Positions 41,512 to 42,140 of a stretch of 64,000 nt of DNA are shown piece by piece. This DNA is from the human T2T-CHM13v2.0 reference genome, Homo sapiens: NCBI RefSeq assembly GCF_009914755.1, contig NC_060927.1. One strand, 5' to 3'. The position numbers and the translations under genes are program-made. Under the pieces are notes generated by a model. That model saw nothing but the letters and a program-made list of their open reading frames with translations. It had not been told where the DNA came from and ran no database searches. How positions within the stretch are numbered: position 1 is the stretch's first letter; every line of letters starts with the position of its first letter.

Positions 41512-42140
41512 ATTATTTATTTTATTTTATTTTATTTTATTTTATTTTATTTTATTTTATTTTATTTTATTTTATTTTATTTTATTTTATTTTATTTTAT
41601 TTTATTTTATTTTATTTTATTTTATTTTATTTTATTTTATTTTATTTTATTTTATTTTATTTTATTTTATTTTATTTTATTTTATTTTATTTTATTTTAT
41701 TTTATTTTATTTTATTTTATTTTATTTTATTTTATTTTATTTTATTTTATTTTATTTTATTTTATTTTATTTTATTTTATTTTATTTTATTTTATTTTAT
41801 TTTATTTTATTTTATTTTATTTTATTTTATTTTATTTTATTTTATTTTATTTATATTTTGAGACAAAGTTTCGCTCTTGTTGCCTGGCCTAGAGTGCAAT
41901 GGCGCAATCTTGGCTCATTGCAACCTCTGCCTCCGAGGTTCAAGCGATTCTCCTGCCTCAGCCTCCCGAGTAGCTGGGATTACAGGCATGCACCACCATG
42001 CCCGTCTAATTTTGTATTTTTAGTAGAGATGGGGTTTCTCCATGTTGGTCAGGCTGATCTCGAATCCCAACCTCGGGTGATCCGCCCTCCTCGGACTCCC
42101 AAAGTGCTGGGATTATAGGCATGAGCCACCGCGCCCAGCC
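41512..42140 (-). mobile_element. AluSp with expanded (AAAAT)n tail and 13-bp TSD
   Basis: Sp diagnostics TTTCGCTCTTGTTG and GGGGTTTCTCCATGTTGGTCAGG; GCATCATGCTTTT at 41499-41511 and 42142-42154; TTTT/AAAA endonuclease site. Confidence 0.93.
41519..41848. repeat. Perfect (ATTTT)66 / (AAAAT)66 pentanucleotide array
   Basis: 330 bp with period 5 and no interruption seen. Confidence 0.98.

What the first reader, a model, noticed from the sequence alone, without database searches (positions are those of the whole stretch)
41519..41848. Uninterrupted (ATTTT)66 expansion in an AluSp tail, with the architecture of FAME/SCA37 loci
Seen: 330 bp of perfect ATTTT inside the TSD-bounded Alu, so the array grew from the poly(A) tail, while the Alu body has many substitutions. 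Known: TTTTA arrays next to retroelement tails are the substrate for pathogenic TTTCA insertions in familial adult myoclonic epilepsy (SAMD12, STARD7, MARCHF6, YEATS2, TNRC6A, RAPGEF2) and in SCA37 (DAB1); common alleles at those loci are far shorter. Inference: perfect purity in an old Alu implies recent, ongoing expansion, so this is a candidate unstable locus or long non-pathogenic allele. No TTTCA unit is present here.
Basis: partly seen in the sequence, partly recalled or inferred. Interest (0 to 1): 0.8.

Follow-up and report, generated by a model that had tools for sequence, protein, structure and literature searches.

The report
Very long ATTTT repeat in Alu tail
A perfect 66-unit ATTTT repeat has grown out of the tail of an old Alu element in a gene-free part of chromosome 3; it is the longest such tract in this reference genome, but it is an ordinary kind of repeat with no sign of disease relevance.

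Summary
Window 41519-41848 is 66 perfect ATTTT units inside a perfect period-5 tract, 41516-41852. It lies between a 14-nt target-site duplication (41499-41512 and 42142-42155) and the 3' end of a minus-strand Alu, so it derives from the Alu A-tail. The Alu is confirmed by two 7SL-like Rfam hits.

In the whole T2T-CHM13 assembly this is the longest of 708 perfect ATTTT tracts of 10 or more units. Only 8 reach 20 units and the runner-up has 40. All 8 sit in Alu A-rich regions.

The Alu body is about 8% diverged at non-CpG sites, yet the tract has no substitution. The array is therefore much younger than the Alu.

The likeness to FAME/SCA37 loci covers motif and Alu origin only. Those loci are intronic in brain-expressed genes, carry TTTCA and span 2-18 kb. 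This one is intergenic, has no TTTCA and is 0.33 kb.

Most likely it is a long, benign, probably polymorphic Alu-tail microsatellite allele. Population length variation, ape orthologues and raw reads could not be checked. Interest is low to moderate.

The parts
41499..41512 (.). Target-site duplication, copy next to the Alu tail (GCATCATGCTTTTA)
   Evidence: Exact 14-nt direct repeat with 42142-42155. Joining the flanks gives an empty site ...CATGCTTTTA|AAACCTC..., a TTTT/AAAA-type site. The match to the L1 endonuclease preference is recalled, not tested.
41513..41518 (-). Distal degenerate remnant of the A-tail (TTATTT on +)
   Evidence: Sequence read. It lies between the TSD and the phase-perfect array.
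41519..41848 (-). (ATTTT)66 on the + strand, equal to (AAAAT)66 in Alu-sense orientation; perfect
   Evidence: It is the longest perfect ATTTT tract in the assembly.
41849..41859 (-). Proximal tail remnant (ATTTATATTTT on +) joining the array to the Alu body 3' end
   Evidence: in sense orientation ...GTCTCAAAATATAAAT followed by the array.
41860..42141 (-). Alu body (dimeric 7SL-derived SINE), S-type by age; subfamily not tested
   Evidence: Rfam Metazoa_SRP hits on the minus strand at 41858-42006 and 42024-42139. It is 70-85% identical to 9 other Alus in the window. Divergence is 7.7% at non-CpG and 28% at CpG-site positions from a local consensus.
42142..42155 (.). Target-site duplication, copy next to the Alu 5' end

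Best explanation
This is an Alu-tail microsatellite. An AluS-age element inserted in minus orientation by L1-mediated target-primed reverse transcription at a TTTT/AAAA site, which left 14-nt target-site duplications. Its poly(A) tail acquired A-to-T changes that created AAAAT proto-units, one substitution away from poly(A). One unit type then spread by replication slippage or unequal exchange into 66 identical copies. Older degenerate units remain at both edges. The tract is all A/T and neither strand folds, so growth is best explained by slippage in an easily melted duplex, not by hairpin-driven expansion. The T2T-CHM13 haplotype most likely carries a long, benign allele of a locus that varies in length among people. 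It lies in a gene desert and has no TTTCA units, so no phenotype is expected. Shown here: the anatomy, purity, genome-wide rank, relative youth of the array and absence of folding. Inferred: the slippage mechanism, present-day instability, polymorphism and benignity.
For: The anatomy is TSD, tail remnant, (ATTTT)66, tail remnant, Alu body, TSD. The array is perfect while the Alu body differs at 18 of 234 non-CpG sites from a local consensus; at that rate about 26 changes would be expected in the tract (P of none about 5e-12). Genome-wide, N(10)=1970 and N(11)=1262 perfect matches give 708 tracts of 10 or more units. N(20)=103 and N(21)=95 give 8 tracts of 20 or more. Five tracts reach 26 units. 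Only this locus and C1:233.5 Mb reach 40 units, even with up to 3 mismatches allowed. All 8 tracts of 20 or more units lie in Alu A-rich regions, 6 in the 3' tail and 2 in the middle linker, so the locus is the extreme of a uniform class. Both strands fold to 0 kcal/mol as DNA, no better than shuffles. [quoted passage not shown] 2025 bioRxiv). Pure TTTTA is considered non-pathogenic (Peters et al. 2022).
Against: No population, pedigree or ape data could be examined, so polymorphism and ongoing instability are not shown. Purity by itself is compatible with a tract up to about 18-22 My old. Xu et al. report that loci with a median length over 150 bp tended to vary less and to be AG-rich. A stable long allele therefore cannot be excluded, although it would be atypical for AAAAT. 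Only one haplotype, CHM13, was seen.
Confidence: 0.85

Rival explanations
1. It is a FAME/SCA37-like pre-mutation locus. The long pure ATTTT allele would be the substrate on which an ATTTC (TTTCA) insertion could arise and cause a neurological repeat-expansion disease.
For: The motif and the Alu A-rich origin are the same as at SAMD12 (AluSq2 tail) and other loci. Sixty-six units matches the ATTTT flanks of pathogenic DAB1 alleles, (ATTTT)60-79(ATTTC)31-75(ATTTT)58-90. The review states that further FAME loci are expected. A 2026 paper (abstract only) reports an enhancer mechanism at the DAB1 Alu repeat, which in principle does not require the repeat to be in a transcript.
Against: No gene is annotated in the 64-kb window and the nearest lncRNA is about 27 kb away (hub annotation). 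All known loci are intronic in brain-expressed genes. No ATTTC unit is present. Pure TTTTA is non-pathogenic. A search for CADM2, VGLL3, tandem repeat and expansion returned 0 papers.
Confidence: 0.03
2. It is a stable, essentially fixed long allele: an old expansion that is no longer changing.
For: Purity alone allows an age of up to about 18-22 My. Loci with long median length tended to show a smaller spread in Xu et al..
Against: [quoted passage not shown] ATTTT tracts at DAB1 are described as very unstable on transmission. This tract is 26 units longer than any other in the genome, which suits an outlier allele better than a long-lived equilibrium.
Confidence: 0.08
3. It is an assembly artefact, and the true tract is much shorter or longer.
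For: Simple repeats are error-prone in assemblies, and raw reads were not available here.
Against: A 337-bp tract with unique flanks and intact TSDs is far shorter than the long reads used for a telomere-to-telomere assembly; that read-length comparison is recalled, not tested. The other long ATTTT tracts in the same assembly have the same Alu context.
Confidence: 0.03
4. It is a functional cis element, for example a DNA-unwinding or nucleosome-excluding tract, or a regulatory Alu repeat acting on CADM2 or VGLL3.
For: The tract is 347 bp of pure A/T (277 T, 70 A) with GC 0.16 in its 500-bp bin. The DAB1 Alu repeat is reported to be an enhancer (abstract).
Against: There is no RefSeq functional element in the window (hub annotation). 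No conservation or chromatin data could be examined. The class as a whole behaves as neutral, fast-evolving sequence.
Confidence: 0.05

Closest known systems
SAMD12 (FAME1) TTTTA repeat in the poly(A) tail of an AluSq2
   Same: It has the same motif, the same origin in the 3' tail of an AluS-type element, and long pure TTTTA alleles exist in healthy people.
   Different: SAMD12 is intronic in a brain-expressed gene. Disease alleles carry TTTCA and span kilobases. Most control alleles have about 20 units. Here the locus is intergenic, has 66 units and has no TTTCA.
DAB1 (SCA37) ATTTT repeat
   Same: It has the same motif. Benign alleles span 7-400 units, so 66 is within range. The ATTTT flanks of pathogenic alleles are 58-90 units.
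   Different: The DAB1 repeat lies in the middle A-rich linker of an AluJb, not in the tail, and is intronic; a 2026 abstract reports that it acts as an enhancer. Two other long tracts in CHM13 (L006, L007) have that linker position; this one does not.
BEAN1/TK2 (SCA31) TAAAA repeat in an AluSx tail
   Same: It is the same unit read in Alu sense and has the same tail origin. The usual length is 8-20 units, with long pure (TAAAA)n insertions in controls.
   Different: The disease allele carries TGGAA, and the locus lies within introns shared by two genes.
Generic Alu-tail AAAAT pentanucleotide repeats (Xu et al. 2025 catalogue of 28,446 loci)
   Same: It has every structural feature of the class: an Alu tail, a motif one change from poly(A), and membership of the class most prone to length change.
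   Different: The difference is one of degree. The mean locus length in that catalogue is about 40 bp; this allele is 337 bp and ranks first in CHM13. It falls just short of the paper's 400-bp definition of an expansion.

Membership tests
Alu 3'-tail-derived AAAAT microsatellite | An adjacent dimeric 7SL-derived Alu body | tested here: met
   Rfam Metazoa_SRP hits both monomers on the minus strand. blastn identity to 9 window Alus is 70-85%.
Alu 3'-tail-derived AAAAT microsatellite | The array lies between the Alu 3' end and the tail-side target-site duplication | tested here: met
   TSDs are at 41499-41512 and 42142-42155. The array at 41519-41848 abuts the ...GTCTCAAAATAT end of the body.
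Alu 3'-tail-derived AAAAT microsatellite | The motif is one substitution from poly(A), in Alu-sense orientation | tested here: met
   The minus-strand reading is (AAAAT)66.
FAME/SCA37-type pathogenic pentanucleotide locus | An ATTTT/TTTTA array in an Alu A-rich region | tested here: met
FAME/SCA37-type pathogenic pentanucleotide locus | Presence of inserted TTTCA/ATTTC repeats | tested here: not met
   There are 0 ATTTC or GAAAT in 41400-41900.
FAME/SCA37-type pathogenic pentanucleotide locus | Intronic position in a gene expressed in brain | tested here: not met
   The hub annotation lists no gene in the 64-kb window. Unannotated transcription could not be tested.
FAME/SCA37-type pathogenic pentanucleotide locus | Total expansion of 2-18 kb (FAME), or at least 31 ATTTC units (SCA37) | tested here: not met
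   The tract is 337 bp.
FAME/SCA37-type pathogenic pentanucleotide locus | Segregation with disease, and intergenerational or somatic instability | not testable with these tools
   No population, pedigree or read data were available.
Benign 'expansion' as defined by Xu et al./Cen et al. (at least 400 bp) | Allele length of at least 400 bp | tested here: not met
   The perfect tract is 337 bp and the whole tail-derived region is 347 bp.
AluSp subfamily | Subfamily-diagnostic positions against a curated consensus | not testable with these tools
   No Alu subfamily library (Dfam/Repbase) was available. Age-like divergence (7.7% non-CpG) fits an AluS-age element, but that is not a subfamily test.

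The most novel reading that the evidence does not exclude
This is the most expansion-prone pure ATTTT locus in the human genome. Some haplotypes carry kilobase-scale or ATTTC-containing alleles that affect a neurological trait, either through an unannotated brain transcript or through an Alu-repeat enhancer effect on CADM2 or VGLL3. That would make it the first intergenic FAME/SCA37-type locus.
Probability: 0.03. Interest if true: 0.75.

Novelty: new member of a known kind. Interest (0 to 1): 0.25.

Why it matters
The locus is the extreme of a well-described class, so it adds no new mechanism. It has two modest uses. First, as the longest uninterrupted ATTTT tract in a complete human genome, lying in a gene desert, it could serve as a selection-free comparator for how pure ATTTT arrays grow, shrink and acquire variant units. 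That is the step thought to precede pathogenic ATTTC insertions at FAME and SCA37 loci. Second, it belongs on the list of loci to check when ATTTC-containing reads turn up in unsolved families, although its intergenic position makes a disease role unlikely.

Tried and rejected
Hairpin-driven expansion was rejected. Both strands of a 150-nt piece fold to 0 kcal/mol as DNA, and all 200 shuffles fold at least as well.

A microRNA reading was rejected. The Rfam matches to mir-1268 (36.1 bits against a gathering score of 83) and mir-3135 (34.6 against 80) lie inside the Alu body and are far below threshold.

I looked for any printed mention of the locus. Xu et al. has 0 occurrences of chr3, CADM2 or VGLL3 in its main text, and its supplements are closed. 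A search for CADM2, VGLL3, tandem repeat and expansion found 0 papers. Two topic searches listed no paper whose title or abstract start, as shown in the search listing, names this locus. Locus catalogues in supplements could not be seen and may well list it.

Earlier findings of this scan were not open. One paper reading failed on a term with brackets; the same question was answered from another review.

The tool's 'control' column in the pattern scans is the pattern read backwards. For a tandem repeat that is merely the same repeat in another phase, so it is not a control, and I did not use it.

Subfamily assignment (AluSp) could not be tested. The GRCh38 position, population genotypes, ape orthologues and raw reads are outside these tools.

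Full report
1. THE OBSERVATION

Reading the window and a script show that 41519-41848 is exactly 66 uninterrupted ATTTT units. The perfect period-5 tract runs a little further, 41516-41852 (337 bp; 270 T, 67 A). Tandem Repeats Finder gives 41516-41859, period 5, 68.6 copies, 99% matches, score 679. It is by far the highest-scoring simple-sequence array among the 29 rows reported for the whole window; only a 326-bp period row made of two adjacent Alus scores higher. No other run of 3 or more ATTTT/AAAAT units exists in the 64 kb, and no ATTTC or GAAAT occurs in 41400-41900.

2. ANATOMY

An exact 14-nt direct repeat, GCATCATGCTTTTA, lies at 41499-41512 and 42142-42155. Between the two copies, reading the plus strand, lie:
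- a 6-nt degenerate remnant (41513-41518);
- the 66 units (41519-41848);
- an 11-nt remnant, ATTTATATTTT (41849-41859);
- an Alu body in minus orientation (about 41860-42141).

In Alu-sense orientation this reads ...GTCTCAAAATATAAAT, then (AAAAT)66, then AAATAA, then the TSD.

The Alu identity rests on three results. Two minus-strand matches to the Rfam 7SL model cover the right monomer (41858-42006, 51.2 bits, E 1e-11) and the left monomer (42024-42139, 46.8 bits, E 1.9e-10). Both are below the gathering score of 70, as expected for a 7SL-derived SINE and not a true SRP RNA. The body is also 70-85% identical to 9 other Alus in the window and 73-86% identical to Alus at other loci.

Joining the flanks gives the empty site ...CATGCTTTTA|AAACCTC.... 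This is a TTTT/AAAA-type site; the match to the L1 endonuclease preference is recalled, not tested.

The AluSp label could not be tested, because no Alu subfamily library is available.

3. AGE OF THE BODY VERSUS THE ARRAY

I compared the body with a majority consensus of 13 other Alus, 9 from the window and 4 from fetched loci. This consensus is rough and mixes subfamilies, which inflates divergence somewhat. The body differs at 18 of 234 non-CpG positions (7.7%) and at 13 of 46 CpG-site positions. It keeps 12 CpGs against 23 in that consensus.

At 7.7%, a 337-bp tract would be expected to carry about 26 substitutions. It carries none (P about 5e-12). The present array is therefore much younger than the insertion.

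At 0.4-0.5e-9 substitutions per site per year, the mean wait for a first hit in 337 bp is 6-7 My, and the 95% bound is 18-22 My. "Recent relative to the Alu" is shown. "Ongoing" is an inference from what is known about long pure repeats.

4. HOW UNUSUAL IT IS

The window's own assembly (T2T-CHM13, 3.117 Gb) was scanned for perfect runs on both strands. The number of matches to k units, N(k), minus N(k+1), equals the number of tracts with at least k units.

| Threshold | Matches | Tracts reaching it |
|---|---|---|
| 10 units | N(10)=1970, N(11)=1262 | 708 |
| 20 units | N(20)=103, N(21)=95 | 8 |
| 26 units | N(26)=65, all listed | 5 |

The 8 tracts of 20 or more units are:

| Locus | Units |
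|---|---|
| This locus (C3:86407519) | 66 |
| C1:233526388 | 40 |
| C9:122873085 | 31 |
| C9:99728724 | 27 |
| C4:21696996 | 26 |
| C3:105854778 | 24 |
| C12:117385722 | 21 |
| C6:121647685 | 20 |

With up to 3 mismatches allowed in 40 units, still only this locus and the chr1 locus match. Interruptions by insertions or deletions would be missed by that scan.

None of the 8 lies on chromosomes 2, 5, 8 or 16. Those on chromosomes 1, 3 and 4 are far from the GRCh38 positions tabulated for the FAME genes and from DAB1, whose position is recalled. The known disease loci therefore carry fewer than 20 pure units in this genome.

This locus is thus rank 1 of 708, by a margin of 26 units.

5. IS IT A DIFFERENT KIND OF THING FROM THE OTHERS?

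No. I fetched the other 7 long tracts and compared their flanks with this Alu. Five abut the 3' end of an Alu (L001-L005). Two lie in the middle A-rich linker between the Alu monomers (L006, L007). With this locus, 8 of 8 are in Alu A-rich regions, 6 in tails and 2 in linkers.

This agrees with a long-read survey of 28,446 pentanucleotide loci in 1,027 people (Xu et al. 2025, bioRxiv; abstract and sections 5, 6, 12 and 18 read). Its findings were:
- 76.7% of AAAAT loci overlap an Alu;
- about 96% of pentanucleotide loci in Alu lie in the tail and 4% in the linker;
[quoted passage not shown] - the commonest motifs are one change away from poly(A).

That paper does not name this locus in its main text (0 occurrences of chr3, CADM2 or VGLL3). 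Its supplementary tables, which may list it, are closed.

6. MECHANISM

Both strands of a 150-nt piece fold to 0 kcal/mol as single-stranded DNA, and all 200 shuffles fold at least as well. Hairpin-driven expansion is therefore not supported.

The tail-derived region is 347 bp of pure A/T (277 T, 70 A), and its 500-bp bin has GC 0.16 against 0.26-0.39 for neighbouring bins.

The best-supported account has three steps:
- A-to-T change in the poly(A) tail;
- slippage amplification of one AAAAT unit in an easily melted duplex;
- survival of older degenerate units at both edges.

The first and last steps are read from the sequence. The slippage step is inference from established knowledge of microsatellites and is consistent with the discussion.

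On the Alu-sense strand the region contains 67 overlapping AATAAA hexamers. These would matter only if that strand were transcribed.

7. COMPARISON WITH FAME AND SCA37 LOCI

The following comes from a FAME review (Peters et al. 2022, passages and Table 2) and a review of pentanucleotide diseases (Loureiro et al. 2022, passages).

Normal alleles:
- STARD7: 9-20 units.
- YEATS2: 7 units.
- RAPGEF2: 12-14 units.
- MARCHF6: 10-30 units.
- SAMD12: about 20 units, with a small fraction of control alleles above 100.
- DAB1: 7-400 units.

Pathogenic alleles:
- They always contain TTTCA/ATTTC.
- FAME expansions total 2-18 kb.
- SCA37 alleles are (ATTTT)60-79(ATTTC)31-75(ATTTT)58-90.
- All are intronic in genes expressed in brain.
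- Pure TTTTA expansions occur in healthy people and are considered non-pathogenic.

Position:
- The SAMD12 repeat is in an AluSq2 tail.
- The SCA37 repeat is in the middle linker of an AluJb.

The locus here shares the motif and the Alu-tail origin, and its length is comparable with the ATTTT flanks of SCA37 alleles. It fails the other defining features. There is no ATTTC, the length is 0.33 kb, and no gene is annotated in the 64-kb window (hub annotation).

A 2026 paper (abstract only) reports that the DAB1 Alu repeat is an enhancer that the ATTTC insertion hyperactivates. This keeps a small door open for non-transcript mechanisms at intergenic loci.

For context, ATTTC arrays do exist in this genome. 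There are 99 matches to 6 units, which form 31 tracts, and the longest has 12 units. None is near this locus.

8. VERDICT

This is a real, exceptionally long but structurally ordinary Alu-tail AAAAT/ATTTT microsatellite allele in a gene desert. It is most likely benign and polymorphic (confidence 0.85). The disease-locus reading is unlikely (about 0.03). What would settle the open points is listed under decisive next steps: population long-read genotypes, raw CHM13 reads, ape orthologues and brain transcription.

Noticed in passing
L002 (G000:C3:105854078-105855597), array at 701-820: A pure (AAAAT)24 Alu-tail array is flanked by GAAAT units (ATTTC on the other strand), one directly before and two directly after it. 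This mixture is closer to the FAME/SCA37 motif composition than anything at the locus under study.
   Followed up: partly
L006 (G000:C9:122872385-122873939, array 653-855) and L007 (G000:C12:117385022-117386526, array 701-805): Two of the 8 longest pure ATTTT/AAAAT tracts in the assembly lie in the middle A-rich linker between Alu monomers. This is the position of the SCA37 repeat, not the tail.
   Followed up: partly
whole assembly G000: Perfect (ATTTC) runs of 6 or more units occur as 31 tracts in T2T-CHM13 (99 matches). The longest has 12 units, at C6:158776547-158776606. Short arrays of the motif that is pathogenic at FAME/SCA37 loci are therefore normal elsewhere in the genome.
   Followed up: no
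G000:C1:233526388-233526587 (L001 701-900): This is the second-longest pure tract in the assembly, (AAAAT)40, in the tail of a less diverged Alu (2.1% non-CpG divergence from the local consensus).
   Followed up: partly
window 57670-58287: Two minus-strand Alus lie head to tail (57681-57961 and 58007-58292) and are reported by TRF as a 326-bp period, 1.9 copies, 87% matches. A short (TTTC)7.8 array at 57978-58008 lies between them, on the tail side of the second Alu.
   Followed up: no
window 35841-35958: An imperfect (TA)59 array (87% matches) starts directly at the 5' end of a minus-strand Alu (35555-35839). It is therefore not tail-derived.
   Followed up: no
window 10078-10157: A (TATC) array of about 21 units, 89% matches, is unrelated to any Alu found by the blastn scan.
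   Followed up: no
window 41513-41859, minus strand: The tail-derived region contains 67 overlapping AATAAA hexamers on the Alu-sense strand. These would be a dense array of polyadenylation-signal-like motifs if that strand were ever transcribed.
   Followed up: no
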